DNA of 64,000 nt, taken from positions 7,826 to 71,825 of the forward strand of contig JAEUUI010000022.1 in the NCBI GenBank assembly GCA_016786585.1, read 5' to 3'. The DNA is from Cyclobacteriaceae bacterium (GTDB lineage Bacteria; Bacteroidota; Bacteroidia; Cytophagales; Cyclobacteriaceae). Positions within the stretch are counted from its first letter, which is position 1, and each line of letters opens with the position of its first letter. The notes beneath the pieces were generated by a model. It was not told the DNA's origin, did not search any database, and worked only from the letters and a program-made list of their open reading frames with translations. Shown piece after piece: positions 29,987 to 60,000 of this stretch. A program made the position numbers and the translations under genes.

Positions 29987-30952
29987 ATGAGCAAATATTC
30001 ATCTGATGTAGAGGCGGCCGATGCACTGGCGGGCACCTATAAAAATCTCGCAAAGGAAATTTCGAAAGTGATCGTTGGCCAGGATGAAGTTGTGAGGCTT
30101 GTTCTTACAGCAATCTTTTGCCAGGGACATTCGCTGCTGATCGGGGTACCGGGGCTTGCAAAAACATTGCTTGTTCAAACCATTTCGCGTGCGCTTGATC
30201 TTCAGTTTAAACGAATCCAATTCACACCCGATCTGATGCCTTCCGATATTCTCGGTGCCGAGACGATGGATAAGGAACGAAACTTCAAGTTCATTAAAGG
30301 CCCGGTGTTTGCAAACATCGTACTGGCCGATGAAATTAACCGGACACCTCCTAAGACGCAGGCTGCCTTGCTCGAATCGATGCAGGAATATGCCGTAACG
30401 ATTGCCGGTCAGCGGTACGAGTTGCCAAAACCATTTTTTGTACTGGCTACACAGAACCCGATTGAGCAGGAAGGAACCTATCCGTTGCCGGAAGCGCAGC
30501 TCGACCGGTTTATGTTCAACATCCTGCTTACGTACCCGTCTTTCGCAGAAGAAGTAAGTGTGGTTAAAAACACTACGAACGATGAAGCGAAATCGCTGAG
30601 CACAATCCTGACATCCGAAGATATTATTGCTTATCAACACCTGGTGCGTAAAGTTCCGGTTCCGGATAATGTTATTGAGTATGCCGTTACGCTGGCGGGC
30701 AAAACCCGTCCGCAAACGATCGGTGCATCACAGGTTGCGAACGATTATCTGGAATGGGGTGCAGGGCCGCGTGCTTCACAGTTCCTGGTGCTCGGTGCCA
30801 AGTGCAACGCGTTATTGAACGGCAAGTACTCACCTGATATCGAAGATGTTCAGGCTATTGCCAAGCCGGTATTGCGTCATCGCATTGTCCGCAACTTCAA
30901 AGCGGAAGCAGAAGGAATTAGTGTAGACGAGGTGATCAGCCGATTGGTCTAG
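29987..30952 (+). CDS. MoxR-family AAA+ ATPase
   Basis: 321 aa. Walker A GVPGLAKT, Walker B LADEINR, and the MoxR signature ATQNPIEQEGTYPLPEAQLDRF. Confidence 0.95.
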   Translation: MSKYSSDVEAADALAGTYKNLAKEISKVIVGQDEVVRLVLTAIFCQGHSLLIGVPGLAKTLLVQTISRALDLQFKRIQFTPDLMPSDILGAETMDKERNFKFIKGPVFANIVLADEINRTPPKTQAALLESMQEYAVTIAGQRYELPKPFFVLATQNPIEQEGTYPLPEAQLDRFMFNILLTYPSFAEEVSVVKNTTNDEAKSLSTILTSEDIIAYQHLVRKVPVPDNVIEYAVTLAGKTRPQTIGASQVANDYLEWGAGPRASQFLVLGAKCNALLNGKYSPDIEDVQAIAKPVLRHRIVRNFKAEAEGISVDEVISRLV

Positions 30953-31071
30953 CAGATTTTAGAAATAGTCATTCCTTATTTGCCGAACGTATTGTATCGC
31001 AGATAAACCGGGATGGGAACAATTTGTTATTTTAGACGGCTGGTTTTCCCCGTAATGTTTCCCGTATTGCT

Positions 31072-31869
31072 ATGAGTGACGTTCCCCCTGATCGATCCGA
31101 TGCCAGATCAGCACTAAGATTCAAGCGTTGGAAGAAGTATGCGTTTGAATTCATCATGGTTTTCCTGGCTGTTTTTTTAGGATTTCTGGCAGAGAATGCT
31201 CGCGAGAATTTTGCTGAAAAACAACAAGCCCGCGAACTGGCGAAGAGTTTTTATGAAGAACTAAAAAGTGATTCCCTTGCTGTAGCGTCTAAAATCCAGG
31301 GCCGGCTCAAAAAGGAACATGCTATTGAGTACATGATCGGCTTCTTCCGCGACAGCAGCCTTACATCGTCCTCCAAACCACTATCCGTAAATTTCATTTG
31401 GGCCATTACGGCAAGAACGCCAATTATCTTCACGCCCCGGACGGTTGTTCTGGAGCAACTGAAAAGCTCAGGATCGCTCCGTTACTTCAGGAATAAGGAG
31501 CTTCGCGATTTGATCGGTGACTTGTCTGTTTCGATTGACTACATCAAAACAAGGCAGGACTATGAAAACTCTATTTTCGAAACGTACATGGAGCCCATTA
31601 TGACTAAGCATATGGACTTCAATTTTCAAAGCCAGCTATTCAAAGGTGAGCAGATTTTTGACCGCTTAGATGCGTATGAGTCAGGCAGTGAGTACATTCC
31701 TTTTCACCTATCGCAGGTTGAAAAATTAGACCGGCAAACGCTTATCAATGCGCTTGGGTATTATCATACGAACGGATTGAAATCTACGCGGCTTATTCCT
31801 TTTAAGAAATACGTTGAGGTTAATGCAGCCACACTAAGTGAATTGCGCAGGGAATTCAATTTGGAGTAA
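31072..31869 (+). CDS. Hypothetical single-pass membrane protein
   Basis: 265-aa ORF with one TM segment (FEFIMVFLAVFLGFLA). No recognisable motif. Confidence 0.55.
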   Translation: MSDVPPDRSDARSALRFKRWKKYAFEFIMVFLAVFLGFLAENARENFAEKQQARELAKSFYEELKSDSLAVASKIQGRLKKEHAIEYMIGFFRDSSLTSSSKPLSVNFIWAITARTPIIFTPRTVVLEQLKSSGSLRYFRNKELRDLIGDLSVSIDYIKTRQDYENSIFETYMEPIMTKHMDFNFQSQLFKGEQIFDRLDAYESGSEYIPFHLSQVEKLDRQTLINALGYYHTNGLKSTRLIPFKKYVEVNAATLSELRREFNLE

Positions 31870-31884
31870 CGACTGTCGGTTCTC

Positions 31885-32412
31885 CTAACGCTTAAACATG
31901 GGCAACGGCCTCAAAGGATGGTTGATAAAATTCTGCAAGGCGCGCCTCATTAAAAACCGGTGAAAACCTTTTGTTGGGAACTGGTTTATAAATTCTGTGA
32001 ATTGCCCTCGCAGAAGTTCGAATTTCAAGACACCCAAACTCAGGTCAATCCAGTCGGCTTTACGAAACACTTCAACAGTTGATTCGTACTGCCCGGTGTA
32101 TCGGCTCATCTTATGATGCATGTCAATCATCAATGAAACCTCAGGTATGAAATTAGTTTTCTGATGCTCGACCAGCCATGCAGTTGCGCGTGCAGCGGAT
32201 GGTTCCAGGTAGTCGAATGTGTTGTTCACCCAAATGCCGATGTCGTGAAACGCAGCCGCTACCGCATAGCGATCACGGTGTTCCGGGTTTGTGTCCAACA
32301 AAATACAAAGATGGTAAACGCGGTAAACGTGATTCCGATATTTATCAAAATCTTCTTTCAGTGAACTTCTGTATTCACTCAGAATCTGATGGATGAGAAC
32401 GTTTGTATCCAC
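31885..32412 (-). CDS. HD-domain phosphohydrolase-like protein
   Basis: 175 aa. H...HD signature (VYHLCILL...AAAFHDIG). Confidence 0.7.
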   Translation of the reverse strand: MDTNVLIHQILSEYRSSLKEDFDKYRNHVYRVYHLCILLDTNPEHRDRYAVAAAFHDIGIWVNNTFDYLEPSAARATAWLVEHQKTNFIPEVSLMIDMHHKMSRYTGQYESTVEVFRKADWIDLSLGVLKFELLRGQFTEFINQFPTKGFHRFLMRRALQNFINHPLRPLPMFKR

Positions 32413-32427
32413 ACATTTCTGAATGGA

Positions 32428-33801
32428 TTACATCTTTATGTCCATTACCTTTTTTGTTTTACGGCTTTCTTCTGCCATAAAGCCCATCACATGACTCTCA
32501 ATGGATTGATCGATGGTTGACGTCAGGAGAGCCGGATTGCGTTGCGCAACGGCCTGCACCCAGTTCCCAGCCAAACGCCAGTCGCCACCCCCATGACCGT
32601 CAGTTGTTTCTTTCCACTCTTCAGTTTTACCGCTTTTAAAATTGGTGATGGTGAATGAATTCATATCACCTACAATGTCACCATGACTACCCATTACGCG
32701 TGTTCTTCTGCCACCGTATGAAGTGAATGCTTCCATGCTGAAACTGGCGGTAACGTTGTCGTCAAACAAAATGTTGGTCACGTAATGATCGGGTTGGTCG
32801 TTATCCATCCGGTAAACGCAACGGCCGTAATTGGTTGTCTTGAGTTGTTCAAGAACATAAGCGGCTTGTTTGTCTTTATCTTCCGGTAAATCGAACACAT
32901 AGTTCCATGAACGTTTGCGATAGTAAATATCCAGCGCTGAATAAGGGCAGGAGCCTTCTACCGCGCACCCGTCCGTACAACGTTCTGTGCTGCCAGCCGG
33001 TGCATTCTTTTTTGTAAACCACGACAAGTCCCCAAATGCATGAATGCTTTTGCTTGGCTTCCCGATCATCCAGCGCAGGATGTCGAGATCGTGGCACGAC
33101 TTAGCAAGAATGATAGGAGTGGTTTGCTTGCTGTTGTGCCAATTTCCACGCACATACGAATGACTCATGTGGATGTGTTCAATCGGCTCCATATGCTGAA
33201 TACTAACTACCTCACCGATAGCTTTGCTTTGGATGAGCTCGCGCAGTTTCACAAAGTACGGAGCATACCGGAGTACGTGACACACGGCTACAATGCGGCC
33301 GGTTTTTTTAGCTAACGTGAGAATATCGCGGCACTCTTTTTCACTTGGCGAAATGGGCTTTTCGAGCAGTACATCGTATCCCATCTCCAGCGCCTTCATG
33401 CAGGGGCCATAGTGCAAATTATCAGGCGTTGTGATGATGATGGCATCGGCAAACTTTGGGCGTTTAAAAACATCTTCCCACGTAACAAAACGATTTTCAT
33501 CTTTGATGGCATGTTTGGCAGCATACCGTTCGTTACGAATAGTAATTGGCTCCGCTACGCCAACAATGTCGAGCTTATCCGGATAGGCCAGCGAGTAGCC
33601 TCCGTATACATTTCCCCGGTTTCCGGCTCCGCACACAATCGCGGTAACGGGCTTATCAAGTTTTTTGTAGTTCGTGTTTTCGGGTAACAGAATCGGGTTG
33701 CCATGTTCATCGCGGGCCTCTAACGAAGCGGGTATTGCGGTAACGGCAGCTGATAATCCGAGTAAGCGAAGCGCATCGCGCCGGGAGAATTTGTTTGACA
33801 T
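32428..33801 (-). CDS. Gfo/Idh/MocA-family NAD-dependent oxidoreductase with Tat signal
   Basis: 457 aa. N-terminus MSNKFSRRDALRLLGLSAAVTAIPA. Rossmann GAGNRGNVYG and the EKP motif LLEKPIS. Confidence 0.9.
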   Translation of the reverse strand: MSNKFSRRDALRLLGLSAAVTAIPASLEARDEHGNPILLPENTNYKKLDKPVTAIVCGAGNRGNVYGGYSLAYPDKLDIVGVAEPITIRNERYAAKHAIKDENRFVTWEDVFKRPKFADAIIITTPDNLHYGPCMKALEMGYDVLLEKPISPSEKECRDILTLAKKTGRIVAVCHVLRYAPYFVKLRELIQSKAIGEVVSIQHMEPIEHIHMSHSYVRGNWHNSKQTTPIILAKSCHDLDILRWMIGKPSKSIHAFGDLSWFTKKNAPAGSTERCTDGCAVEGSCPYSALDIYYRKRSWNYVFDLPEDKDKQAAYVLEQLKTTNYGRCVYRMDNDQPDHYVTNILFDDNVTASFSMEAFTSYGGRRTRVMGSHGDIVGDMNSFTITNFKSGKTEEWKETTDGHGGGDWRLAGNWVQAVAQRNPALLTSTIDQSIESHVMGFMAEESRKTKKVMDIKM

Positions 33802-33890
33802 ACGGTCTGGTTCAGAAAACCAAGCTACGAATTAGTGAAGGTGTATCCAAAAAATGCTGATGCAATGCCTATCTTTGGTATAACCCCACA

Positions 33891-34661
33891 ATGTCAGTAT
33901 TAAAATCACACACCGGCCAGCGTACGGTTTTCGTTCAGTCGAAAGGGTGCAGCAATGCTGTTTTCTTTCCGGTACTCGGAGTGATTGCTGTTTCGGGTTT
34001 TGTGATTCATTACTTTTATCCTGATTTAGGTTCAATGCCCTGGGGGCCTATCAAATTTGGCTGCTGGATAATAACGGGCTTTTTTCTGGTTGTGATCTTT
34101 ATCTCGCGCGGCATTCATAATTCCACACCCCACACATTTATTTTTGATCATGAACATGGAATGGTGATTCTGCAATCAGAATCCGCACAGGAAGAGGCAT
34201 ACATTGCATACAACGAAATTGAGAAGCTTGATATCTATGTCGATGAAAGGAAATCTGACGATAGCACAACCAACTATTTTTACGGGTATCTGCAAAAACG
34301 GGATGGAAGTCAGTGGTCTTTTGTCGATTCGTTGAATGACCAAACCGTTCGTCACGCACTTGACTTGCTGCGTGAAAAAATTACACCCGACCGACCGTTT
34401 ATGCCACCGGAAAAAGCCCGGGTGAGTAATAAAATAAAAAAGGAAGAAAGCAGAACCGCCTCTTTGCTGTATTGGACTAACCGTACGGGCATGCGGTCAG
34501 TTCAACTGGCTGTATACTCCATACTGTATACAGGTGTTTTTGGCTTTTGTCTTTATGTAATCTTTGATATAAGCGGAAGGTTTCCGCCAGAGGCGAAAAT
34601 TGCCTGCTTTTTTGCTACGGCAATATTTGGTACGCTGCTGGCTTTTTGCTGGTGCAAGTGA
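33891..34661 (+). CDS. Hypothetical membrane protein (2+2 TM with a central soluble domain)
   Basis: 256-aa ORF with no recognised motif. Its stop overlaps a possible GTG start of the next gene (GTGA at 34658-34661). Confidence 0.6.
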   Translation: MSVLKSHTGQRTVFVQSKGCSNAVFFPVLGVIAVSGFVIHYFYPDLGSMPWGPIKFGCWIITGFFLVVIFISRGIHNSTPHTFIFDHEHGMVILQSESAQEEAYIAYNEIEKLDIYVDERKSDDSTTNYFYGYLQKRDGSQWSFVDSLNDQTVRHALDLLREKITPDRPFMPPEKARVSNKIKKEESRTASLLYWTNRTGMRSVQLAVYSILYTGVFGFCLYVIFDISGRFPPEAKIACFFATAIFGTLLAFCWCK

Positions 34662-34984
34662 TTCGCAGAAATCTTAAAAATCTCTTCTTACGATTTGCAC
34701 TTTCCGTGAGTGAATCTGCCGTGGAGTACTTCGAGTTTAAGAAGGGAAGCGGTGAGCGTAAAGCAAGCGTATCAGTTGCTGTAGAGGATATCGTTGCAAT
34801 CCGGTACGGTTTTCAGGCATGGCAGAATTACAAAAAGCCATTGGAGATCATTAGCCGTCGGGACCCCGACACCGCCGTTGAGTTATACATGGACAGTCTC
34901 AGTCCCATCGAATGCCTGCAGGTAGAAAACTGGTTGCAGGAAACACTCGAAGCTAAAACCGGAAGAAAGTTAAGCGGGGTTTAG
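34646..34984 (+). CDS. Small hypothetical protein whose C-terminal 69 codons are duplicated 2.3 kb downstream
   Basis: 112-aa ORF. Start is TTG at 34646 or, more plausibly, GTG at 34658, which would be translationally coupled. The C-terminal sequence VAVEDIVAIRYGFQAW...KTGRKLSGV recurs at 37091-37300. Confidence 0.55.
   Translation: MLVQVIRRNLKNLFLRFALSVSESAVEYFEFKKGSGERKASVSVAVEDIVAIRYGFQAWQNYKKPLEIISRRDPDTAVELYMDSLSPIECLQVENWLQETLEAKTGRKLSGV
34775..34984 (+). repeat. Direct repeat copy 1 (210 bp, coding 3' end)
   Basis: Hand alignment against 37091-37300 shows equal length, no indels and 13 mismatches. Confidence 0.9.
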
Positions 34985-35231
34985 CATGGCGCTAACCTGC
35001 AGTATCAAGCTTACGATTTAGAATTTTTGATCGAATCATGGCGCACGGAAATAAAACACATTACAATGCGAATATTTGCTATCAAAGTCTGGTAAAATGA
35101 TTCAGAAATGAGACTACGAATCACATTGAACTAGAAACAGGTATAATAATGAATAGTTAATGTGGAAGCTTAGAATAGAGCTCCCACATTAAATAACGTG
35201 TGTTGAATAGGGCAAGAAATTTTCAGAAATT

Positions 35232-36905
35232 CTAAAAATGACTAATCAAAAGATCTATTTGAGAATCAGTAACTCCAGAAGGTTTATTCTGCTTAAGAAT
35301 CTCAGCAAGAGATGATAGTCCGTAGATATGTTTTAACATCTCGGTTTCAATTCCCGGAAGGGTGTAGCCACTCACCTGGTCATCGACCAAGCCTGTTCCA
35401 CGATCTGGGTAGTAGACATTCAACTGATTGATTTTATCGACTATATCAATATAGATTGAAGTGTATTTTTCAGAGCTTTTTTTAGTCCAATATTGGTATG
35501 CATATGAATTTGGCCTACCGGGAGGTGCAGTCGGAAAATAATCTTCTCTTCCGTAATTGAAAATTCCTCTTTCTCTGTATTCAATATTTGTTATGTACCA
35601 CTCAATAGCAGTTGCCCAACTCTCCTGCAATTGAGGAGAAACTTGCCAGTACTGAAGTACCGTGTTCATTTTTATGACGTGACTTGTATGACCGGTTTCG
35701 TGGGCGGTTGTTGAGAAGATTTCGTCCGAAAGAAATTCGGAATTAATGTCAAAGTATCTCCACACTTTGATAATGGGAACAACAACCCAGTTCGTGCCAC
35801 TGGAATTGCCAACACCATCGATCGCAACGTACACGGTTCGTCTCCGGGTGAAAAAAGGGCCAGCTGCCCACCTGAGTGGTCTTTGTAATCCTCCGATATC
35901 TTTGTAGTGATATCTAAAAGCCGATCTGAAAACGTGTCCCGCAAATCGTTGATAGCTGTTATTTAAATCGTAGTTCCAATCTCCAGAAAGTTTAGGACCG
36001 TTGACCCAAAATGTTGTATTTACGATGTTATGTCGTACCGAAAATCGAGTTTGCGCAAACCAAATAGAGTAATTGCATACTTTGCTAACAGAACGACTCA
36101 TGCGAAAATTACCATTAAAGTCTGTGAATGCCGACAATACCGTAAACCAACGCCTAGCCTGGACTCTAACACCCTCCATTCCAATCCACTGTTGCAGACG
36201 AGTGTCAAATATTCTGATGCGCCCACCCGGGGTAAATCTTCTTGAAGCGGTCGATGCTATGCAATCACCACTGTCAATTAGATCTTCGTTATTGCCTGTT
36301 TGAATATAGGCTTGATTTAATAACTTATCCACAAAGCAATCGTCTTTCCCTCCCTTGGTATAATTAAAAGCAGCATCTTCCTCTGGAATATAGAGTTCAT
36401 CCAGAATTTCATATTCAATGCTTTTTTGAAATACATAGTCCGCCTTAACTGCGCTGTACTGATAAGTTGGCACACTGTCGGGCAGGCTTGCGTCATGATA
36501 ATAATCACCATTTACAAGTATTGTACTTTCAATAGGTATGTCTGAAAATACCAAGGTTGAATCAGAGTGTAAGTTTTCATACTCATCCGAATCTTTGGGT
36601 TTAAATTTCACATAGTAATGAGTTGTGCGAACATTTGTGGATGAGTTAGGTTTCACCCCCATCTTTTCCAGGTATTGCCAGGCTGTTATCATGTTCTGAA
36701 CCGTGTAAGGATTTTGTTTATTTTTTCCTAACACAGTGTTAGTTGCCTCCATATAAGGCACGTCACTTTCTATTTTTGCCTGTAAGGTTGAACTTTTTAA
36801 ACCAGCCACATTGTCGTTTGTTAACTCGTCATCCTGACAGCCAACAAAAAGTAGAGTGAACACCGATAAACTCAATGACCACAATCGTAATTTTTTATTC
36901 TTCAT
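35232..36905 (-). CDS. Lipoprotein with HExxH zinc-metalloprotease motif, family not recognised
   Basis: 557 aa. Lipobox LLFVGC. A beta-sandwich-like segment GGRIRIFDTRLQQWIGMEGVRVQARRW. TAHETGHTSH lies near the C-terminal third. About one third G+C in the lines I counted. Confidence 0.75.
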   Translation of the reverse strand: MKNKKLRLWSLSLSVFTLLFVGCQDDELTNDNVAGLKSSTLQAKIESDVPYMEATNTVLGKNKQNPYTVQNMITAWQYLEKMGVKPNSSTNVRTTHYYVKFKPKDSDEYENLHSDSTLVFSDIPIESTILVNGDYYHDASLPDSVPTYQYSAVKADYVFQKSIEYEILDELYIPEEDAAFNYTKGGKDDCFVDKLLNQAYIQTGNNEDLIDSGDCIASTASRRFTPGGRIRIFDTRLQQWIGMEGVRVQARRWFTVLSAFTDFNGNFRMSRSVSKVCNYSIWFAQTRFSVRHNIVNTTFWVNGPKLSGDWNYDLNNSYQRFAGHVFRSAFRYHYKDIGGLQRPLRWAAGPFFTRRRTVYVAIDGVGNSSGTNWVVVPIIKVWRYFDINSEFLSDEIFSTTAHETGHTSHVIKMNTVLQYWQVSPQLQESWATAIEWYITNIEYRERGIFNYGREDYFPTAPPGRPNSYAYQYWTKKSSEKYTSIYIDIVDKINQLNVYYPDRGTGLVDDQVSGYTLPGIETEMLKHIYGLSSLAEILKQNKPSGVTDSQIDLLISHF

Positions 36906-36943
36906 AAGATTTGTGTTTTATGAAGCTACTTAGTGTAGTCAAT

Positions 36944-36963
36944 TTTTAATGCATGCATTAAAA
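36944..36963. promoter_or_regulatory. Perfect 20-bp palindrome TTTTAATGCATGCATTAAAA upstream of the HExxH lipoprotein gene (candidate operator)
   Basis: Read directly from the sequence. The centre lies between 36953 and 36954, about 40-60 nt upstream of the ATG at 36905 (minus strand). Confidence 0.3.
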
Positions 36964-37090
36964 TACCGCGATTTTTCTCGAGTAAGTTCTCAGTCATTTT
37001 TGTGCAAATAGTTATCTGAAGACAATGAGAACCTAAGGCATTATCTTGAAACAGGTTGATTTTTAACTCTCCTTTAGAGAATACAGAGGG

Positions 37091-37300
37091 GTTGCTGTGG
37101 AGGATATCGTTGCAATCCGGTATGGTTTTCAGGCATGGGAGAATTACAAAAAACCATTGGAGATCATTAGCCGTCGGGACCCCGATACCCCCGTTGAGTT
37201 GTACATGGACAGTCTCAGTCCCATTGAATGTCTGCAGGTAGAAAACTGGTTGCAGGAGACACTCGAAGCTAAAACCGGGAGAAAGTTAAGTGGGGTGTAG
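37091..37300 (+). repeat. Direct repeat copy 2 (210 bp)
   Basis: About 94% identical to 34775-34984 by hand count (13 differences in 210 nt). Confidence 0.9.
37097..37300 (+). pseudogene. 5'-truncated paralogous copy of the 34646-34984 gene (67 codons, GTG-initiated ORF retained)
   Basis: The translation MEDIVAIRYGFQAWENYKKPLEIISRRDPDTPVELYMDSLSPIECLQVENWLQETLEAKTGRKLSGV has only 2 residue changes against the full gene. It lacks the N-terminal 40 or so codons. Whether it is expressed is unknown. Confidence 0.5.
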
Positions 37301-37314
37301 TCAAAACAAGAAGT

Positions 37315-37599
37315 TCATTTATTTCCCGCTCTCCGTTTCGAGCATACGATTATTGTTCCTACCCCGAGCAGTAAAACGGCCGGAACAAATGCAAACCAGA
37401 ACTCTCCCGAGCCGATGTCTGTGGTAAAAAATGCAATGAGCAGGAGGATGATTCCAAAAAAGAACCAGACTTTTTTTCTATTGCTTTTGTAAAGAGCTTT
37501 ATACTGATAGTCAAGAAGTTCTTTTTCAGTTTTATTCATTGAAATCAGGACTTTTATCATTTCATGGTTCACTAAAATTAGACTTTTCCCATGTACCAT
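37315..37599 (-). CDS. Small two-TM membrane protein, hypothetical
   Basis: 94-aa ORF; a more likely start is the internal MNKTEKELL at about 37539. Two hydrophobic helices. No motif. Confidence 0.45.
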   Translation of the reverse strand: MVHGKSLILVNHEMIKVLISMNKTEKELLDYQYKALYKSNRKKVWFFFGIILLLIAFFTTDIGSGEFWFAFVPAVLLLGVGTIIVCSKRRAGNK

Positions 37600-37710
37600 T
37601 CTTAGTTCCAGTGGCCTGCCTTCATATATGACAGGAGTTACAAACGGAAGTTTGCGAAATTTGAACCCGCTGAATCACATCGCCTCCACAAGTTATCAGG
37701 CTAATTATGT

Positions 37711-37941
37711 GATGTTGTTAAAATTCGCAACACGCAAACAACTATCAGCAAGCACATAGCAATTATCTGCATCGCGATTGAAATTATCAGCAAGGACTAT
37801 TAAATAATCTGCAATACAATAATTAACTATAGCAACGCCAGTGAAAATATCGGCAACGGGGTTGTTAAATTCTGCAACGGTTGTGTCAATTTCTGCAACG
37901 ACACTGTAAATATCTGCAACACTTTTGCTAATTATTGCAAG
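37711..37941. repeat. Array of 11 tandem 21-bp units with a conserved 3' half (A/T-rich, then ATCTGCAAC-like) and a variable 5' half
   Basis: GCAA(C/G/T)/GCATC cores start at 37727, 37748, 37769, 37790, 37811, 37832, 37853, 37874, 37895, 37916 and 37937. That is exactly 21 bp apart, eleven times, and the region is non-coding. Confidence 0.9.
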
Positions 37942-38070
37942 CGGGAAGGGGAGATTTCGCGTTTGGGAGGGGTTTTTGGACCTTCCTAAAAATACTTGAC
38001 ACTTTTGGGGCTGTTTACTAGAAGTGGTTTACAGGGCTAGCGGTTATTCCTGATTCAATATCAGCTGTGA

Positions 38071-38130
38071 CCAAACGTGATTTGAAATCAACTAAACTGC
38101 AAAGTTACACCGAATCCAGCCATTGATTAT
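38071..38130 (-). repeat. Reiterated intergenic module, copy X (contains TAACTTTG -7 box on the minus strand at 38100-38107)
   Basis: About 84% identical by hand alignment (51/61 columns) to 39856-39916. It lies immediately 3' of the 38155-38790 gene. Confidence 0.7.
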
Positions 38131-38154
38131 GGGCATTGCTGCGCGCTGGTTTTT

Positions 38155-38790
38155 TTAACTGGTCGTGTAATAAGTAATCAATAATTCATTACCGCGTCTC
38201 CACTTAATCCAGCCACTCTTTATTTCAGTTTTATTTTGCCCTTCGTCACAATAGTTGGTCGTGAAAATTTCAATCCAGTCTCCTTTTAGAGATTTTACTT
38301 GAAAACAATCTCGTCCTTCATATTTTATTTCTTCAGCCGTATCAGCAGGTTGTATTCTTATCTTTTGTTTATGCTCAGCAAGCCTGTCTACCGCGAACAT
38401 TTGTTTAAGGTACTCTTCCCAGGTCAAGAGTTTTGTCGTCTTATTCTTTTTAATCCAGTAAGTCTGTCCGTTGTCGTTGTTCACAATAAGTTCTAACCAT
38501 TCACCATTTGTCGATTTACACCTGAAGTTAACTTGTGAATAGTCCAGCCATAGTAATTCTGGTTTTAACCAAGTCTGTTCAGTTTTCAGATTCTTTATGT
38601 TCCAACTGTTTATCGCTTTGTCGTCAAAGAACTCAATTCTCTTTGAGTACACCGTGTCAGCCGGCTTAGTGTAAAAGTCGATTATTGTCTTGTCGTCAAA
38701 TTCTATTTTTACAATCCCTGTCCCAAGTGTCACTTGCCCGTGCGTCTGGGTTAGAATTGTCATTAATAGCATGGTGGTCCAAATTCTCAT
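38155..38790 (-). CDS. Hypothetical secreted protein
   Basis: 211 aa with signal peptide MRIWTTMLLMTILTQTHGQ. W/K/E-rich with no motif. AT-rich. Confidence 0.65.
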   Translation of the reverse strand: MRIWTTMLLMTILTQTHGQVTLGTGIVKIEFDDKTIIDFYTKPADTVYSKRIEFFDDKAINSWNIKNLKTEQTWLKPELLWLDYSQVNFRCKSTNGEWLELIVNNDNGQTYWIKKNKTTKLLTWEEYLKQMFAVDRLAEHKQKIRIQPADTAEEIKYEGRDCFQVKSLKGDWIEIFTTNYCDEGQNKTEIKSGWIKWRRGNELLITYYTTS

Positions 38791-38854
38791 AAGAAACTTG
38801 TGTACAACATTAGGCTAGAAGCCGTTGCCGGAATGTTTGGCGTTACTAAGTCGG

Positions 38855-38947
38855 AACTGTTCCACGTGACCTAGCGTGAACCGAAGATACAAATTAAAAT
38901 TAGTTGAAAACCCGGCAATGACTTTAGCCAGCGCCGTGGGCTGCGGC
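38855..38947 (-). repeat. Reiterated intergenic module, diverged copy Z
   Basis: Shares blocks with copies X and Y: CTGTTCCACGTGACC, and GAAAACCCGGCAATGACTTTA against GAACCCCGCCATTGATTATG. It is more diverged, and the alignment was done by eye. Confidence 0.45.
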
Positions 38948-38958
38948 CTACTCCGAAA

Positions 38959-39549
38959 TTATTTGCCAACCGTTTCTTTTCTCTTTAGTCGTCCGTTGCC
39001 CGCTTTGTCGTAATGGTGAATCTCCTTTTTCCGTCCGTCCGGATGATAGAAGATTAATTGTCCCACGGGATTACCTTTCTTAAAATATCCTTCTAGTCGC
39101 TTATTTCCATTGTCAAAATAATCCACGTTGTACCCTTCACATAATTGGTCGCAACAAGAGTATCCACAGTCTCCCGCACTTTGTGGTGGTAGAACACAAT
39201 TTATAACATAACAGTCCATTATAGCGGACCTTGTTAACGTGTCGTAATTTTTTCCTTGAGATATTGTAATAACCTTTACCGAGTCGACCAAACGATAAAG
39301 CGTGTAGTCAAAAACCTTCAACTTATAAATTCCAGGATCTGGCAAATAAATTGTCCCAAGAGTATCTGAAATCTGAAACATCTTTCCATCCTTAACTAAA
39401 TGAACGAGTAATTCATTTTCATAAGTCGAATTGCATGGATTAAAAGTTACTACGTTTAGTGTGATTCCTTGTCCATGAGTCAAATCTGTCCAGAAGTTGA
39501 AAAATAATATGATTGCTAATACTCTCATGTCTTTTTGGCCGTTGCCCAC
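38959..39549 (-). CDS. Secreted protein with C-terminal MORN-variant / YwqK-like repeats
   Basis: Likely start at MRVLAIILFFNFW (39528). The C-terminus YFDNGNKRLEGYFKKGNPVGQLIFYHPDGRKKEIHHYDKAGNG resembles YwqK-family repeats. Confidence 0.6.
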   Translation of the reverse strand: MGNGQKDMRVLAIILFFNFWTDLTHGQGITLNVVTFNPCNSTYENELLVHLVKDGKMFQISDTLGTIYLPDPGIYKLKVFDYTLYRLVDSVKVITISQGKNYDTLTRSAIMDCYVINCVLPPQSAGDCGYSCCDQLCEGYNVDYFDNGNKRLEGYFKKGNPVGQLIFYHPDGRKKEIHHYDKAGNGRLKRKETVGK

Positions 39550-39855
39550 AACGTTGGTTTTTATGCAGTGTGCGGAGTAGGAGGGCTTAAAAATGAAGCG
39601 CAGCGGAATGTTTTACTCTACCAGTTGCGGCCAACCAGCTACTATAACAAAAATTGAAATATCTAATTTAGAGTTGTCCTAAAAATGGGGAGCTTACAAT
39701 CCGTGACTGCAGTCTCTTCACCCCAGATAGATTTATTGATTATTTCTTTTTTAAAATCAGTCGCCGTTTTCATTGGTACTTAGTTGTTGATATGATTACC
39801 GCTAACGCTTGTGCATAAGCAGTGGCGGGTCTTCGAAGCGCTTCACTGCCCCACG

Positions 39856-39916
39856 ATACCAAACTTATTTTGAAAAACTAAACTACAAATTTACACTGAA
39901 CCCCGCCATTGATTAT
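39856..39916 (-). repeat. Reiterated intergenic module, copy Y (contains TAAATTTG -7 box on the minus strand at 39886-39893)
   Basis: See copy X. It lies between the 40094-41281 and 38959-39549 genes. Confidence 0.7.
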
Positions 39917-40093
39917 GCACTTTGTTGCCGGCTGTTGGCCTTTGTCCATTCAATTGCATGTTGTCCTTCAGTCCAATTCGTATTACTTTCTACTTCTGAA
40001 TTGTCGGCTTACTCTAAGTTTAGTGTGTTGGCCGCTCCGTTTTCTTTTCTCCTGTTAAATTTTTGAATATTCAAGAAAGTGAATTTCAAAGAT

Positions 40094-41281
40094 TTATCGA
40101 ATCCAGGATACACTCAAGGTATTAAAGTCATATATCTTATTTTGGTCATTCAACAGAAACTGCCAGAGAATGGAAACATTTTCAAATTTCATAACATAGC
40201 TGTAATCAAAAGATTCTTGAAATTTCTCTTTATGTATCAATTCCAATGACTTTAAGTCCCCAAATTTTCCATAGATATTCTTAATATTATCTTCTGATTT
40301 TTTTAAATCAAGAGCAAAGTTTTCTGTAAGATCAGTGTATTTCAATTTTCCATTTGCTACTTCACTAAATAAATTTTGAATTTTGGCTGTTATTTCATGT
40401 TCTTGGTTAGGCAATGGCTTATACATTGTCAAAATATGTCTGTGCATATTTAGTGTCAATGGCATTACTGTTTGGTGTATTTGATTAGAAATATTTGATG
40501 TCTCATAGTAATGTCCCCCCTTTTTCAATTCTTCAAAAAGATTAAGTTTTGTATTTTCATTTGGATTAGCGAAGTTATAAAATACGATTTCTCCAGTTTT
40601 TAAATCATACGAGTTTGAGTATTTAGTGCCGCCATCTCCAGGAACTACACATTGCCTTAGAATTTCGGCACCTTCATTTATACTTGGGGTATTTCCCTCT
40701 TTATATAATCTATCAAAAGTGGCTTCACCAAAGCCCGAACCCCTACTTTTAATTGTGGTATCAAAATATAGATTGCCATTTTTTGAGCCAATAATTACGG
40801 ACATTCCTGATTTGTCAGCTATAAATAATGTAGTCCTTGCGAATGCTGGTTCGCTGTATTTCTGGTAAAATTTTATAGCTTCCTGCACAGTCTTGCATCT
40901 CTCAAGCATCCATTGGGCCGTGTTTACATTCAAATGAATCTTTTTTTTGTCAGGCACATAGTTGGAGTCAACGGTGTAACTATCTCCATCAACAGTAACC
41001 CACTCAAAAGCTAACCCTTTTGTATTTAGTCCACCTTGAGCTTCTCCATCATTAAAACCCACATAAGCACTACCGAAATGACCTTTCCCTTCTGGAACAA
41101 ACCAAATCCTTGTTTTAGGGTTAGTAAAATCTTCATTGTTAAAAAAGTAAGTATGCTTACCATCTGTCAATACAAAAACAGTACAAGCGTTTGAAGAAAG
41201 TACTCCCCCTAAGAATATTATTAGAAATAAAATTCCTGAGACAGAAAATGAATATGGAAAACGAAACATGATTTTGTCCAT
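40094..41281 (-). CDS. Secreted Ntn-hydrolase-like protein (choloylglycine hydrolase / linear amide C-N hydrolase type)
   Basis: 395 aa. The signal sequence ends in SSNA, followed by CTVFVLTDGKHTYFFNNEDF, so a Cys would be the N-terminal nucleophile after cleavage. AT-rich. Confidence 0.65.
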   Translation of the reverse strand: MDKIMFRFPYSFSVSGILFLIIFLGGVLSSNACTVFVLTDGKHTYFFNNEDFTNPKTRIWFVPEGKGHFGSAYVGFNDGEAQGGLNTKGLAFEWVTVDGDSYTVDSNYVPDKKKIHLNVNTAQWMLERCKTVQEAIKFYQKYSEPAFARTTLFIADKSGMSVIIGSKNGNLYFDTTIKSRGSGFGEATFDRLYKEGNTPSINEGAEILRQCVVPGDGGTKYSNSYDLKTGEIVFYNFANPNENTKLNLFEELKKGGHYYETSNISNQIHQTVMPLTLNMHRHILTMYKPLPNQEHEITAKIQNLFSEVANGKLKYTDLTENFALDLKKSEDNIKNIYGKFGDLKSLELIHKEKFQESFDYSYVMKFENVSILWQFLLNDQNKIYDFNTLSVSWIR

Positions 41282-41543
41282 TTGCTTTAGTTTTTAATAA
41301 TAAATATTGTGGTTTGCCTTATGTTACACCCTGATAACGGTCATCTTTCGAACAGGTTTTCCACGAGTACAATTTTTTAAATCTCAATTTAGTTTATGTA
41401 CGTCACAAGAGGAAAAGTCAATCTTTCGTTTTTCCATTGTCAACCGAAAACTTAGCCGTCTGGTCCGTCACTGTCCACGAAGGCGACCAATTGCCGGCAA
41501 CGTCCGGATATAAGCCACACTATGGCCTATATTTCTTTACTAA

Positions 41544-42281
41544 TTACCCCAACCTCTTCGCTACCTCATCCCAATTCACAACGTTCCACCAGTTGGTAAT
41601 GTATTCGTTGCGTTTGTTTTGGTATTTCAAATAGTAGGCGTGTTCCCAAACGTCCAGACCCAAAAGTGGTGTACCTTTTACTTCAGCAGTATCCATCAGC
41701 GGGTTATCCTGGTTGGGTGTAGAGGTGATCTGTAGCTTGCCGCTCGCATCTTTTACCAGCCACGCCCAGCCTGAACCGAACCGACCCATCGCAGCGGCAT
41801 TAAATTGTTCCATAAACTTAGGCACGGAACCGAACGATCCATCAAGCGCAGCAACAATTTTCCCATACGGAGTTCCGCTTGCGCCCGGCTTCATCACCTG
41901 CCAGAAGAAATTATGATTCCATGCACCACCGGCATTGTTGCGAACTTTGGCTGACAGCTTCGAAGCATTGTCAAAAAATTCTTTTTCCGAAGAGTACGTG
42001 AGTTTCTCTGCCACAATCGCTTCGTTCACGTTTTTAATGTACGCAGCATGATGTTTTGTATAATGAATGTCCATCGTGAGGGCATCAATGCTCGGTTCGA
42101 GTGCATTCTTCTCGTACGGCAACGGTATCTGTTTGAATTCAAATGCGGCTGCGGTTCCTGCTTTACCTAAGTTGCCGGCAGGCTGTGCAAATGCGTTCTC
42201 TAAAATGAACGATGAGCCTACGGCTGCGCCAACGGATGCTTTGAGCGAATCGCTCATAAATTTTCTGCGTGATGTTTTCAT
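41544..42281 (-). CDS. sodA: Fe/Mn-family superoxide dismutase with N-terminal Tat signal
   Basis: 245 aa. N-terminus MKTSRRKFMSDSLKASVGAAVGSSFILENAFA, then the canonical HYTKHHAAYIKNVN and GLDVWEHAYYLKYQNKR. Confidence 0.93.
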   Translation of the reverse strand: MKTSRRKFMSDSLKASVGAAVGSSFILENAFAQPAGNLGKAGTAAAFEFKQIPLPYEKNALEPSIDALTMDIHYTKHHAAYIKNVNEAIVAEKLTYSSEKEFFDNASKLSAKVRNNAGGAWNHNFFWQVMKPGASGTPYGKIVAALDGSFGSVPKFMEQFNAAAMGRFGSGWAWLVKDASGKLQITSTPNQDNPLMDTAEVKGTPLLGLDVWEHAYYLKYQNKRNEYITNWWNVVNWDEVAKRLG

Positions 42282-57025: not shown

Positions 57026-60000
57026 ATGAGCAACAACCACGCTAACCGTTCCGGTAAAGGGCTTTACACACCCGAACTTGAACATGATGCTTGCGGCATC
57101 GGCTTCATAGCAAACATTAATGGTTTCAAAACCAATCAGACTCTTTCTGATGCGCTCACCATGCTGGAAAATATGGAGCATCGCGGAGGCAAAGGGGCGA
57201 GTCCTAAAACAGGAGACGGGGCCGGTGTATTGCTACAAATTCCACACGACTTTTTTGTCGAGGAAGCTGCACGATTGAAGTTTACGCTTCCTGCTCCAGG
57301 GTTCTACGGAGCAGGTGTTGTGTTTTTTCCGCGCAACAAAAAAGTAATGAATGCATGTCGCGAGTTATTGCGAAAGAACATCCAGTTGTTGGGCCTCGAT
57401 TTATTGGGATGGAGATCAGTTCCTGTCGACCACAGCATTCCCGGGCCGGGTGCGGCAGAAGTGGAGCCTGTTATCGAACAATTCTTTGTTAAGCCAAAAG
57501 ATGAAGCCCTTGATCCGGATGCGTTCGAGCGCAAGTTGTTTGTGCTGCGAAACTTCACCACGCATTCGGTAACGCGTGAAATAAAAGGAAGCAACAAGGA
57601 ATTTTATATTCCAAGCCTTTCAAGCCGAACGATTATCTATAAAGGTCAGCTTCGTACGGAGCAGCTTCGTGCGTACTTCTATGACCTGCAGGATGCACGA
57701 TTGAAAACTGCACTCGCGCTGGTTCACTCACGCTTTTCTACCAATACGTTTCCGAACTGGAAGCTTGCCCAGCCGTTCCGGTACATCGCACACAACGGTG
57801 AGATTAACACCATTCGCGGTAACGTAAACAAAATGAAATCGAAAGAAGCGTTGTTCAAGTCAACACTTTTTACCGACGAAGAATTAAAGATGCTTTTGCC
57901 GATCACCAATCCCGAAGGTTCGGATTCGGCAAACCTCGATGCTCTTGTTGAAATGCTGGTATTATCGGGAAGAACAATTCCGCACGTGCTGATGATGCTG
58001 GTGCCGGAAGCGTGGCAGGATAACAAACTGATGGACAAACACCGCAAGGCATTCTATAAATATCATGCTTCGATGATGGAGCCATGGGATGGTCCCGCGG
58101 CACTTGTGTTTACAGATGGCTGTCGCATTGGGGCGACACTGGATCGTAATGGCCTGCGTCCGCTGCGCTATTGCGTTACCCGCACCGGCAAAGTGATCGC
58201 TGCATCGGAAGCCGGAGCGTTGCCTGTGAATCCAAAAGAAATTTTGGAGAAAGGCCGCATTACTCCGGGCAAGATGCTGATGGTTGATCTTGAAAAGGGA
58301 AAGGTACTGGGCGATGACGTGGTGAAGCGCACGGTGTATGAAGGCAAGCCGTACTTCGAATGGATTAAAGAAAATCGTTTAAAACTCAGGCTGGAACCTG
58401 AACAGAAGTCGTTCAAGAATGTCTTTGATGCAAAAACACTGTTACAGCGTCAGAACGCTTACGGTTTTACATCAGAAGATTTAAAAACAATTATTACCCC
58501 GATGGCCGCAACCGGGTATGAAGCAATCGGTTCCATGGGCGATGATACTCCGCATGCAGTTCTCTCGAAAGAAAGCCGCCACATCTCGAACTACTTCCGG
58601 CAGCATTTTGCGCAGGTAAGTAATCCGCCAATCGATCCGATCCGTGAACGTTTGGTAATGTCGTTATTTACGCGAATCGGGGTGAGCTTGAATGTGCTGG
58701 AAGAAACGCCTAAACACACGAATCAAATTCACATCGGGCAGCCGGTGTTGCTGAATTCTGATCTGGAGAAACTAAAACATTTACCCGAACACGGCTTTGA
58801 CTACGCGGTAATCAACTCGGTGTTCAAAGCTGATGGAAAGCCCGGTCGCCTGGAAGAGGCAATTAAAAAGATTTGCAACGAAGCTGAAAAGGTTGTTAAA
58901 GAAGGCAAGAAGATTATTGTTATCTCTGATCGTAACATCAATGCCGACTATGCGCCTATTCCATCGTTGCTTGCTATCGGTGCCGTGCATCATTCCCTCG
59001 TTGAAAAAAGATTGCGTGCATTAACCGGCTTGCTCGTTGAAGCGGGCGATGTTTGGGAAGTTCATCACTTCGCCACCATCATCGGGTATGGAGCAAGCGC
59101 TGTCAATCCATACATGGCGTTTGAAACCATTCACCATCTGAATCAACAGGGAGCGTTTAACAAAGAAATCTCAGACGACTACGCATTTGCAAACTATCAG
59201 AAAGCTATCGGCAACGGACTGCTGAAAGTTATGTCGAAGATGGGGATCAGTACGCTGCAGTCGTACCAGTCGTCACAAATCTTTGAAGCGTTGGGTATTG
59301 GCAGCGATGTAGTAGAAAAGTGTTTTCGCGGAACGATCAGTCGCATCGAAGGTATGTCGTTCGATGACCTCGCGAAGGAAGTTCTGGTACGTCATAATCT
59401 GGCGTTTAACAATCCGGGAACTGAATTGCCGGTTGGCGGAATTTATCAGTGGAAACGAAGAGGCGAAAAACACCTCTTCAGCCCTGAGATTATTCACCTG
59501 CTTCAGCACTCAACAAAAAGTAACAATTACGAACTCTATAAAAAGTACGCACAGAAAATCAACAACCTCGCGCAGGATACCATTACGTTCCGCGGATTGT
59601 TTGAATTCAAGAAGCGAAATGCTGTTCCGCTCAGCGAAGTAGAGCCGGTTGAAGAAATTTTTAAGCGCTTTGCCACAGGGGCGATGTCGTTTGGATCAAT
59701 TTCTCATGAAGCTCACACCACGCTGGCTATAGCCATGAACCGGATTGGCGGCAAAAGCAACAGCGGGGAAGGTGGTGAGGATGAAATCCGTTACGAACGA
59801 AAAGAAAATGGAGATTGGGAAAGGTCGGCCATTAAACAGGTTGCTTCCGGGCGTTTTGGTGTAACCAGCTACTATTTAACCAATGCCGAAGAGCTTCAGA
59901 TAAAAATGGCGCAGGGTGCTAAGCCCGGTGAAGGTGGTCAGTTGCCGGGAGATAAAGTTGATGAGTGGATCGGCCGGGTGCGACATTCAACTCCCGGTGT

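What the first reader, a model, noticed from the sequence alone, without database searches (positions are those of the whole stretch)
34775..37300. A 210-bp direct duplication of a gene's 3' end brackets a single orphan HExxH lipoprotein gene
The last 69 codons plus stop of the 34646-34984 gene recur at 37091-37300. The two copies have the same length, no indels and 13 mismatches. Only the oppositely oriented 35232-36905 metalloprotease-like gene and its flanks lie between them, giving a repeat spacing of 2316 bp.

A gene whose 3' end is duplicated across an insert is the classic scar of site-specific integration into a gene's 3' end. In that case the incoming DNA supplies a replacement tail, in the manner of attL/attR. 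Here, though, the insert is only about 2.1 kb and carries no recombinase. Homologous recombination between the copies could also loop the protease gene out as a circle.
Basis: seen in the sequence. Interest (0 to 1): 0.7.

Follow-up and report, generated by a model that had tools for sequence, protein, structure and literature searches.

The report
Recombination scar: gene tail duplicated around insert
One Cyclobacteriaceae strain gained a 2.1-kb lipoprotein gene just behind a conserved membrane-protein gene, and the 210-bp duplicated gene tail is most likely a scar of ordinary recombination between two strain variants of a variable chromosomal hot spot, not the mark of a new mobile element.

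Summary
Copies at 34775-34984 and 37091-37300 are 210 nt long, with 13 mismatches and no indels. Separate contigs in independent metagenome assemblies cover both junctions and the interior.

Three corrections apply.
- The "34646-34984 gene" is the 3' part of a 364-aa gene (33891-34984, "geneX"). It is split by a genuine 1-nt deletion near 34640.
- The HExxH lipoprotein is not an orphan. It has more than 300 Bacteroidota homologs. The closest (75% aa) sits in the same hot spot in a sister clade.
- No recombinase, transposase or tRNA gene was found among the window's ORFs of at least 150 aa.

Four relatives carry an empty site: geneX stop, 14-15 nt, then the small gene that follows copy B in the window. 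The insertion reading is therefore supported.

Eleven of the 13 differences are synonymous (P <= 8e-5). The two tails are therefore alleles that diverged inside working genes of different strains, not an in-situ duplication.

My best explanation is general homologous recombination through the shared geneX tail plus one illegitimate joint at 37090|37091. The likeliest topology is a Campbell-type single crossover of a re-circularised fragment. This is a known kind of event, so interest is low to moderate.

The parts
32428..33801 (-). GFO/IDH/MocA oxidoreductase. This is the conserved left flank of the strain-variable hot spot.
   Evidence: Pfam hit. It is 92-99% aa identical and syntenic in all relatives.
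33891..34984 (+). geneX, a 364-aa membrane protein with two TM-hairpin plus PH-like modules. Here it is split by a 1-nt deletion near 34640 into ORFs 33891-34661 and 34646-34984.
   Evidence: Intact 364-aa homologs P0001-P0008 exist. The deletion is seen in the alignment. The frameshifted ORF is on 19 contigs. AF2 and Foldseek give EROS and PH-domain hits.
34775..34984 (+). Repeat copy A, the last 69 codons plus stop of geneX. It carries Q for an invariant E and A for a P that the five closer homologs share.
34985..35231 (.). Spacer between the geneX stop and the stop of the lipoprotein gene. It contains a 14-bp-stem terminator-like hairpin at 35157-35192 on the minus strand. It has no homolog in any fetched locus.
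   Evidence: GC is 34%.
35232..36905 (-). 557-aa predicted lipoprotein with HETGH (residues 402-406), H409 and E428 invariant. It is a gluzincin-like, uncharacterised family with no Pfam or NCBIfam model.
   Evidence: GC3 is 37.6% against about 51% in core genes.
36906..37090 (.). Upstream spacer of the lipoprotein gene, with a 20-nt perfect palindrome at 36944-36963. Its right end, 37090|37091, is the one novel (illegitimate) junction.
   Evidence: Junction-spanning contig L030.
37091..37300 (+). Repeat copy B, a displaced geneX tail allele. Its amino-acid sequence is identical to the tail of P0001. It is contiguous with the ancestral downstream DNA.
   Evidence: It starts inside a strand of the second PH-like domain, so it is an incomplete domain.
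37315..37599 (-). Small membrane protein (94 aa, or 74 aa from the internal ATG). It is the ancestral downstream neighbour of geneX.
   Evidence: It lies 14-15 nt after the geneX stop in L004, L013, L019 and L041.
37620..37705 (+). Remnant of the 3' end of a DUF6973 gene. The gene is intact in L010 and L041. The same remnant stretch aligns in L004.
38046..41501 (.). Second strain-specific block of the hot spot, with three minus-strand genes of 211, 196 and 395 aa and GC of 33-38%. About 780 bp with a 146-aa gene stand here in L004.
41544..42281 (-). Fe/Mn superoxide dismutase. This is the conserved right flank of the hot spot.

Best explanation
The slot between the oxidoreductase gene (32428-33801) and the superoxide dismutase gene (41544-42281) is a strain-variable hot spot in this group of Cyclobacteriaceae. 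Different lineages carry different cargo there. The conserved 3' tail of geneX marks the left edge of the variable cargo and serves as a homology arm.

In the window's strain, two haplotypes have been joined additively.
- One haplotype, not itself sampled, has geneX followed by the lipoprotein gene.
- The other has geneX followed by the small p94 gene and a DUF6973 remnant.

The join needed only general (RecA-type) homologous recombination within the shared 210-nt tail and one illegitimate joint at 37090|37091.

I favour this topology. A donor fragment ran from geneX nucleotide 886 to 185 nt upstream of the lipoprotein gene. It re-circularised and then integrated by a single Campbell-type crossover into the resident tail. 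This duplicates exactly the homologous segment. The duplication ends at the stop codon because homology between the haplotypes ends there.

A linear, homology-facilitated illegitimate join would give the same product and is not excluded.

What is shown: the insertion polarity, the two distinct alleles, and the absence of any recombinase among the tested ORFs of the window. What is inferred: the recombination topology and the donor haplotype.

The insert is a self-contained transcription unit, with upstream spacer, gene and terminator hairpin. The event itself left geneX intact. The frameshift and the two non-conservative changes in copy A are separate changes whose timing relative to the insertion is not known. 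The two repeats remain a substrate for RecA-mediated deletion of the insert.
For: Empty sites:
- Window 30000-34984 aligns with L004 6111-11095, and window 37091-38045 aligns with L004 10886-11859.
- The same holds for L019 and L013 and for L041.

Polarity:
- L041 has geneX, then p92, then an intact DUF6973.
- The same 69-nt DUF6973 remnant aligns next to the p94 homolog in both the window and L004.
- The geneX-p94 arrangement is therefore the older one.

Two alleles:
- 11 of 13 differences are synonymous (P <= 8e-5).
- The 5 changes unique to copy B are all synonymous (P about 0.0004-0.003).
- Copy B alone is an incomplete domain.
- The A-B distance of 13 is at or above the between-strain tail distances of 7-13.

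The tail as a crossover zone:
- L041's geneX is L008-like until about 40-70 nt before the stop, then L004-like.
- Homology between the window and L007 ends at the geneX stop.
- Divergence from L004 rises towards the variable blocks.

A mosaic is compatible with a single crossover near position 138. B(1-138)+A(139-210) differs from L004 at 4 sites. A(1-138)+B(139-210) differs at 13.

No mobile-element machinery:
- No recombinase or transposase domain in the ORFs of at least 150 aa that were scanned or that carry precomputed Pfam annotation in syntenic loci.
- No tRNA.
- No terminal inverted repeats.

The cargo is compositionally distinct. GC3 is 28-42% against about 51% in core genes, while the tails are core-like.

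A homolog of the lipoprotein at 75% aa identity occupies the same slot in L010-L012.

Experimental precedent: single crossover of re-circularised, partly degraded DNA produced 109-950-bp duplications of the homologous segment in 56 of 60 clones. True homology-facilitated illegitimate recombination accounted for 4 of 60 (PMC3240628).
Against: - The donor haplotype (geneX directly followed by the lipoprotein gene, without a second tail) was not found in any collection searched.
- The single-breakpoint mosaic is not statistically significant (permutation p = 0.12). Circle and linear routes therefore cannot be separated.
- No microhomology can be assessed at 37090|37091, because the parental sequence is unknown.
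- Nothing is known here about natural competence or other DNA-uptake routes in this organism.
- A trans-acting recombinase encoded outside the 64-kb window cannot be excluded.
Confidence: 0.7

Rival explanations
1. Site-specific integration. The 2.3-kb unit is a non-autonomous integrative element, like a cis-mobilizable element. An integrase encoded elsewhere in the genome moves it, and the geneX tail is its att site.
For: The topology is attL/attR-like, and there are exact empty sites. The repeat reaches the stop codon, so the gene stays whole. Identical runs of up to 32 nt could hide a core.
Against: No integrase was found in the insert or among the tested ORFs of the 64 kb. The other geneX loci fetched show a single geneX-tail match each, although cargo begins right after the stop in most of them. 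The 210-nt repeat has 13 scattered mismatches, far longer and less exact than typical att cores. The lipoprotein family sits among housekeeping genes elsewhere, with no flanking repeats.
Confidence: 0.1
2. Old in-situ segmental duplication in the common ancestor. Copy B was kept because it encodes a useful 67-aa peptide, and the empty sites arose by repeated deletion between the copies.
For: Copy B keeps an open frame from GTG 37097 and has no amino-acid change relative to P0001. A, B, L004 and L019 are roughly equidistant. The lipoprotein gene, the DUF6973 remnant and the 21-nt array lie in the same order as in L010.
Against: The geneX-p74 adjacency is also present in the more distant L013 and L041 (about 74-83% nt identity in geneX), so it is far older than the 6% A-B divergence. 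Several independent precise losses would be needed. L004's tail is not of the A(5')+B(3') type that deletion would give. Copy B starts in the middle of a beta strand of a PH-like domain.
Confidence: 0.07
3. Assembly artefact. A collapsed or chimeric join of two strains in a metagenome-assembled genome.
For: The source is a MAG. Many short-read contigs break inside the repeat.
Against: Single contigs identical or nearly identical to the window, from independent runs and assemblers, span each junction and the interval 34840-37183.
Confidence: 0.02

Closest known systems
Campbell-type single-crossover integration of a circular or re-circularised DNA by general homologous recombination
   Same: The insert is bracketed by a direct duplication of exactly the shared homologous segment. 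The duplication size (210 bp) lies within the experimentally observed 109-950 bp (PMC3240628). No dedicated recombinase is needed. The event is reversible by recombination between the repeats.
   Different: Here it is inferred from natural strains, not observed. The circle, its origin and the route of DNA entry are unknown. The two repeats are distinguishable alleles.
Homology-facilitated illegitimate recombination (described in Streptococcus pneumoniae, Acinetobacter baylyi and Pseudomonas stutzeri; summarised in PMC3240628 and PMC5361080)
   Same: One homologous anchor plus one illegitimate joint adds DNA that has no homolog in the recipient. The scale is about 1-2 kb.
   Different: The classical outcome is an insertion coupled with a deletion of recipient DNA, not a duplication. 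Microhomology at the joint cannot be checked here.
Displaced 'orphan' 3' gene ends in Rhs, CDI and T6SS effector-immunity arrays (PMC5361080)
   Same: The gene keeps a complete 3' end. A second 3' fragment lies downstream of newly added DNA. The conserved part of the gene serves as the recombination anchor.
   Different: The two tails here are near-identical alleles, not polymorphic toxin domains. There is no toxin or immunity gene. The inserted gene is on the opposite strand and is unrelated to geneX.
Integrase-mediated islands in the 3' ends of genes or tRNAs, and their integrase-less derivatives (cis-mobilizable elements; the term appears in ICEberg 2.0, PMC6323972, whose text was not read here; the features are from my own knowledge)
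   Same: Direct repeats flank the insert, the target gene's 3' end is reconstituted, and empty sites exist in relatives.
   Different: There is no integrase, no short exact core, no recurrence at this site, and the repeat is much longer.
Hot spots between conserved genes whose cargo is swapped by flanking homologous recombination, for example the 'minimal mobile elements' of Neisseria (my own knowledge, not checked here)
   Same: Conserved flanks (oxidoreductase or geneX tail, and SOD) carry lineage-specific, low-GC cargo. A crossover inside the geneX tail is seen in L041.
   Different: Simple flank-mediated replacement leaves no duplication. The window shows an additive event on top of such a hot spot.

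Membership tests
Site-specific integrative element (attL/attR, including cis-mobilizable elements) | A tyrosine or serine recombinase encoded in the element or nearby | tested here: not met
   Pfam scans of window ORFs of at least 150 aa, together with precomputed Pfam annotation of syntenic loci, show no recombinase. A few ORFs, including the 1510-aa one at 57026-61558, were not scanned. The rest of the genome was not available.
Site-specific integrative element (attL/attR, including cis-mobilizable elements) | An empty site with a single att in relatives | tested here: met
   L004/5/6, L019, L013 and L041.
Site-specific integrative element (attL/attR, including cis-mobilizable elements) | A short exact core shared by both repeats, and recurrent use of the same site by other cargo | tested here: not met
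   The repeat is 210 nt with 13 scattered mismatches, and the longest identical run is 32 nt. The other geneX loci examined by tblastn show a single tail.
Site-specific integrative element (attL/attR, including cis-mobilizable elements) | Excision to a circle with restoration of the empty site | not testable with these tools
   Only assembled contigs are available. None shows a deletion or circle junction.
Campbell-type homologous single-crossover insertion | A direct duplication of the whole segment shared by the incoming and resident DNA, bracketing the insert | tested here: met
   The duplication ends where inter-haplotype homology ends, at the stop codon.
Campbell-type homologous single-crossover insertion | Reciprocal chimeric repeats: resident 5' with incoming 3' in one copy, and the converse in the other | tested here: inconclusive
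   The pattern is present, with 11 of 13 sites concordant for a breakpoint near position 138. Permutation gives p = 0.12.
Homology-facilitated illegitimate recombination | One homologous anchor, one illegitimate joint (often with 3-10 bp microhomology), and a usually coupled deletion | tested here: inconclusive
   One novel joint at 37090|37091 and homologous flanks are shown. Microhomology cannot be tested without the parent sequence. A duplication rather than a deletion is observed (compare PMC3240628).
Transposon or IS insertion | A transposase, terminal inverted repeats and a short target-site duplication | tested here: not met
   There is no transposase, no inverted repeats at the insert ends, and the duplication is 210 nt.
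Polymorphic-toxin orphan arrays (Rhs, CDI, T6SS) | Variable toxic C-terminal domains with cognate immunity genes | tested here: not met
   The tails are 97% identical in protein. geneX is a PH-like membrane protein. No toxin or immunity domain was found.
Zinc metallopeptidase (gluzincin type), for the inserted gene | HExxH plus a downstream Glu ligand on a thermolysin-like fold | tested here: inconclusive
   H402, E403, H406, H409 and E428 are invariant in 35 homologs. There is no Pfam, NCBIfam or PDB sequence hit. Foldseek gives only weak M4 and M36 matches, with E above 0.01.

The most novel reading that the evidence does not exclude
The geneX tail plus lipoprotein gene is a recombinase-free cassette that hitch-hikes on homology. 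RecA loops it out between the two tails as a 2.3-kb circle. The circle can then re-insert by single crossover into any strain that carries geneX. A fragment of a host gene would thus act as a portable attachment site, and the hot-spot cargo would circulate in the population this way.
Probability: 0.12. Interest if true: 0.5.

Novelty: new member of a known kind. Interest (0 to 1): 0.25.

Why it matters
This is a clean natural example of how accessory genes are added at a chromosomal hot spot without any mobile-element machinery. The two repeat copies are still recognisable as different strain alleles. The empty site and an older intermediate haplotype (L041) are both sampled.

It also serves as a caution. 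A duplicated gene 3' end around an insert does not by itself indicate an integrase.

Two side products may be more useful to annotators:
- a widespread Bacteroidota lipoprotein family with an invariant HExxH..E signature and no Pfam or NCBIfam model;
- a rare membrane protein built from two PH-like modules interrupted by TM hairpins, resembling EROS.

Tried and rejected
- I looked for the donor haplotype (geneX followed by the lipoprotein gene without a second tail). I used the protein database, the GTDB genome scan and the JGI metagenome scan. Only empty sites and the window's own strain were found.
- I looked for deletion or circle junctions in contigs of the same strain. None were found.
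- I looked for homologs of the two spacers in all fetched loci. Only about 23 nt upstream of the start codon align with L010.
- I looked for repeats around the lipoprotein homolog in L010. There were none apart from the 21-nt array.
- I tested the single-crossover mosaic statistically. It was not significant.
- I tried to use flank divergence to decide which side was incoming. The pattern is star-like and uninformative.
- Rfam and tRNA scans of the region were empty.
- I folded the 59-80-nt repeat found after two hot-spot genes. There was no structure beyond that of shuffled sequences.
- A PDB sequence search for the lipoprotein returned nothing. Foldseek was weak.
- Two primary papers on homology-facilitated illegitimate recombination (PMC122324 and PMC122325) are not held in the library.
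Full report
**Observation**

A 210-nt direct repeat is present at 34775-34984 (copy A) and 37091-37300 (copy B). The copies are 94% identical, with 13 mismatches and no indels, and the spacing is 2316 nt. It is the only dispersed repeat of at least 60 nt in the window. Similarity starts abruptly at GTTGCTG and stops exactly at the TAG stop codon.

Between the copies lie three things:
- a 247-nt spacer with a strong terminator-like hairpin at 35157-35192;
- a 557-aa minus-strand ORF at 35232-36905;
- a 185-nt upstream spacer with a 20-nt palindrome at 36944-36963.

The arrangement is real. Contigs identical or nearly identical to the window, from many independent runs and two assemblers, cover 34840-37183 (L001). 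Others span the junction 34984|34985 (L025, L037, L038, L040) and the junction 37090|37091 (L030).

**What the repeated gene is**

The ORF at 34646-34984 is not a gene of its own. A search with ORFs 33891-34661 and 34646-34984 joined end to end found intact 364-aa homologs that cover 100% of the query (P0001 at 97% identity, and others at 83%, 71-73% and 43%).

The window has a 1-nt deletion (CTGGGC to CTGGC, about 34640) relative to L004, L019 and L013. The resulting 256-aa ORF occurs on 19 contigs, and the 8 fetched come from 8 different runs or assemblies. The frameshift is therefore real and not an assembly error.

I call the gene geneX. It is rare. It forms 8 protein clusters in 5.8 billion sequences and occurs in 3 GTDB species, all Cyclobacteriaceae or Flammeovirgaceae. 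It has no Pfam or NCBIfam family.

An AlphaFold model (pLDDT 74) shows two modules. Each has a beta hairpin, a TM hairpin and a PH-like sheet with a C-terminal helix. The best structural match is EROS (8kei_D, E = 3e-5), followed by other PH domains.

The 69-residue tail starts inside a strand of the second PH-like domain. Copy B on its own would therefore be an incomplete domain.

**The inserted gene**

The source organism is a Cyclobacteriaceae MAG (locus tag JNJ75_12385). The 557-aa protein has 314 homologs at E <= 1e-3 across Bacteroidota, so it is not an orphan.

C23 of the signal peptide (LFVGC) is at least 90% conserved. H402, E403, H406, H409 and E428 are invariant in 35 homologs. This fits a lipoprotein with a gluzincin-type HExxH...E signature.

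No Pfam, NCBIfam or PDB sequence match exists. A confident model (pLDDT 84) gives only weak fold matches, to a transthyretin-like sandwich and to M4 and M36 peptidases.

Its closest relative (P0010, 75% aa) lies in L010-L012, genomes of a sister clade. There it occupies the same slot, directly next to the same oxidoreductase gene and in the same orientation, with no geneX. More distant homologs sit among housekeeping genes.

**Empty sites and the hot spot**

In L004/L005/L006 (about 97.4% nt identity):
- window 30000-34984 aligns with L004 6111-11095;
- window 37091-38045 aligns with L004 10886-11859.

One intact geneX is thus followed by the sequence that follows copy B in the window. The window therefore has 2316 extra bases. 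L019, L013 (about 83% nt) and L041 show the same geneX-stop, 14-15 nt, small-gene adjacency.

The interval between the oxidoreductase and SOD genes differs in every lineage examined. Its cargo has low GC (GC3 28-42% against about 51% in core genes), while both tails are core-like. Divergence from L004 rises towards the variable blocks. Window 38046-41501 is a second strain-specific block.

**Polarity**

L041 carries geneX, then p92, then an intact DUF6973 gene, then p157, the 21-nt array, p146 and SOD.

The window and L004 retain the same 69-nt remnant of the DUF6973 3' end next to the p94 homolog. It lies at about window 37620-37705 by tblastn, and its 69-nt core is 37628-37696. The geneX-p94 arrangement is therefore older. 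The part of the window to the right of 37091 derives from it.

**The two tails are different alleles**

Eleven of the 13 differences are synonymous, which is improbable for neutral divergence (P <= 8e-5 for kappa 1-8).

Polarising with L004, L019 and L013 gives five changes unique to copy B (positions 63, 141, 168, 189, 201). All five are synonymous third-position changes (P about 0.0004-0.003). Copy A has five unique changes (9, 49, 96, 100, 207). Two of these are non-conservative. One is Q at E312, which is invariant. The other is A at a P that the five closer homologs share.

A non-functional fragment that diverged in place should not show only synonymous change. The simplest reading is that both tails diverged inside working genes of different strains and were then brought together. 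The A-B distance (13) is at or above the between-strain tail distances (7-13).

**Mechanism**

No recombinase or transposase domain was found in the window ORFs of at least 150 aa that were scanned, or in the precomputed Pfam annotation of the syntenic loci. A few ORFs, including the 1510-aa one at 57026-61558, were not scanned. There is no tRNA and no terminal inverted repeats. The other geneX loci examined have only a single tail.

The tail is demonstrably a crossover zone. L041's geneX is L008-like up to about 40-70 nt before the stop and L004-like from there on.

The boundary at 34984|34985 coincides with the point where homology with L007 ends. Only 37090|37091 therefore needs to be a new, illegitimate joint.

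Two routes give this product.
- Route (a): a fragment of a geneX-lipoprotein haplotype re-circularises and integrates by a single homologous crossover in the tail.
- Route (b): a linear, homology-facilitated illegitimate join.

Route (a) predicts a duplication of the shared segment. In E. coli experiments, such single crossovers of re-circularised DNA gave 109-950-bp duplications in 56 of 60 clones. True homology-facilitated illegitimate recombination gave insertion plus deletion in 4 of 60 (PMC3240628).

Route (a) also predicts reciprocal chimeric repeats. The data are compatible with this. B(1-138)+A(139-210) differs from L004 at 4 sites, while A(1-138)+B(139-210) differs at 13. The breakpoint test is not significant, however (p = 0.12).

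I therefore commit to recombinase-independent additive recombination, with a probability of about 0.7. I favour the Campbell-type topology but have not shown it.

**Rivals**

- A trans-acting integrase (about 0.1) is not excluded, because only 64 kb of the genome is available.
- An old in-situ duplication with repeated loss (about 0.07) conflicts with three observations. The geneX-p74 adjacency occurs in much more distant relatives. L004's tail is not of the A(5')/B(3') type that deletion would give. Copy B is an incomplete domain.
- An assembly artefact is excluded by the junction-spanning contigs.

**Comparison with known systems, and verdict**

The locus works like a Campbell-type homologous insertion in a recombination hot spot. 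It resembles the displaced 3' ends of Rhs and T6SS arrays (PMC5361080), but it is not a member of that class, because it has no polymorphic toxin or immunity content. It fails the tests for integrase-borne elements and for transposons.

It is a new instance of a known kind of event. It is of modest interest as a well-resolved natural example and as a caution against reading every duplicated gene tail as an att site.

Noticed in passing
window 34636-34645: geneX carries a 1-nt deletion (CTGGGC to CTGGC) that splits it into 256-aa and 108-112-aa ORFs. The frameshifted ORF was found on 19 contigs, and the 8 fetched come from 8 different runs or assemblies. Copy A also has Q at the invariant E312 and A at a P that the five closer homologs share. 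geneX may be decaying in this strain.
   Followed up: yes
window 37720-37940 (also L010 6820-6981, L004 about 11500-11780, L041 3876-4060): An array of about 10 units with a 21-nt period. Each unit has a conserved ATC(T/A)GCAA-like 8-mer and variable spacers. It lies in non-coding DNA between p94 and the next gene and is conserved across clades. There is no Rfam match. It could be a set of phased binding sites.
   Followed up: partly
window 37620-37705: A remnant of the 3' end of a DUF6973 gene (tblastn E = 7e-6; 83-86% nt identity over a 69-nt core). The gene is intact in L010-L012 and L041. The same 69-nt stretch aligns in L004.
   Followed up: yes
window 38070-38148 and 39858-39934; L007 14066-14151: A 60-80-nt element at about 80% identity, repeated downstream of minus-strand hot-spot genes (p211, p395 and an Mrr-like gene in L007). 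It has no predicted structure beyond that of shuffled sequences. It may be a shared 3' UTR, terminator or cassette-boundary sequence.
   Followed up: partly
window 38046-41501: A second strain-specific block with three low-GC minus-strand genes of 211, 196 and 395 aa. The last has a weak match to a C45-family acyltransferase/hydrolase. About 780 bp with a 146-aa gene stand here in L004 and L041.
   Followed up: partly
L041 102-887 against L008 and L004: geneX of L041 is a mosaic. It is L008-like (90-97%) up to about 40-70 nt before the stop, and L004-like (93-96%) from there into the downstream gene. This marks a homologous crossover inside the tail.
   Followed up: yes
window 47468-48357 (inside ORF 46720-49455, minus strand): Tandem repeats of 123 nt and 174 nt (41- and 58-codon units, 65-84% identical) inside a 911-aa ORF with no Pfam match.
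   Followed up: no
L035 6784-7251; L036 7701-8201: In distant relatives the lipoprotein homolog is followed on the same strand by a small gene of 155-166 aa with no Pfam match. This may be a partner protein. It is absent from the window's insert.
   Followed up: no
window 36944-36963: A perfect 20-nt palindrome (TTTTAATGCATGCATTAAAA) lies 40-60 nt upstream of the lipoprotein start codon. It is a candidate operator.
   Followed up: no
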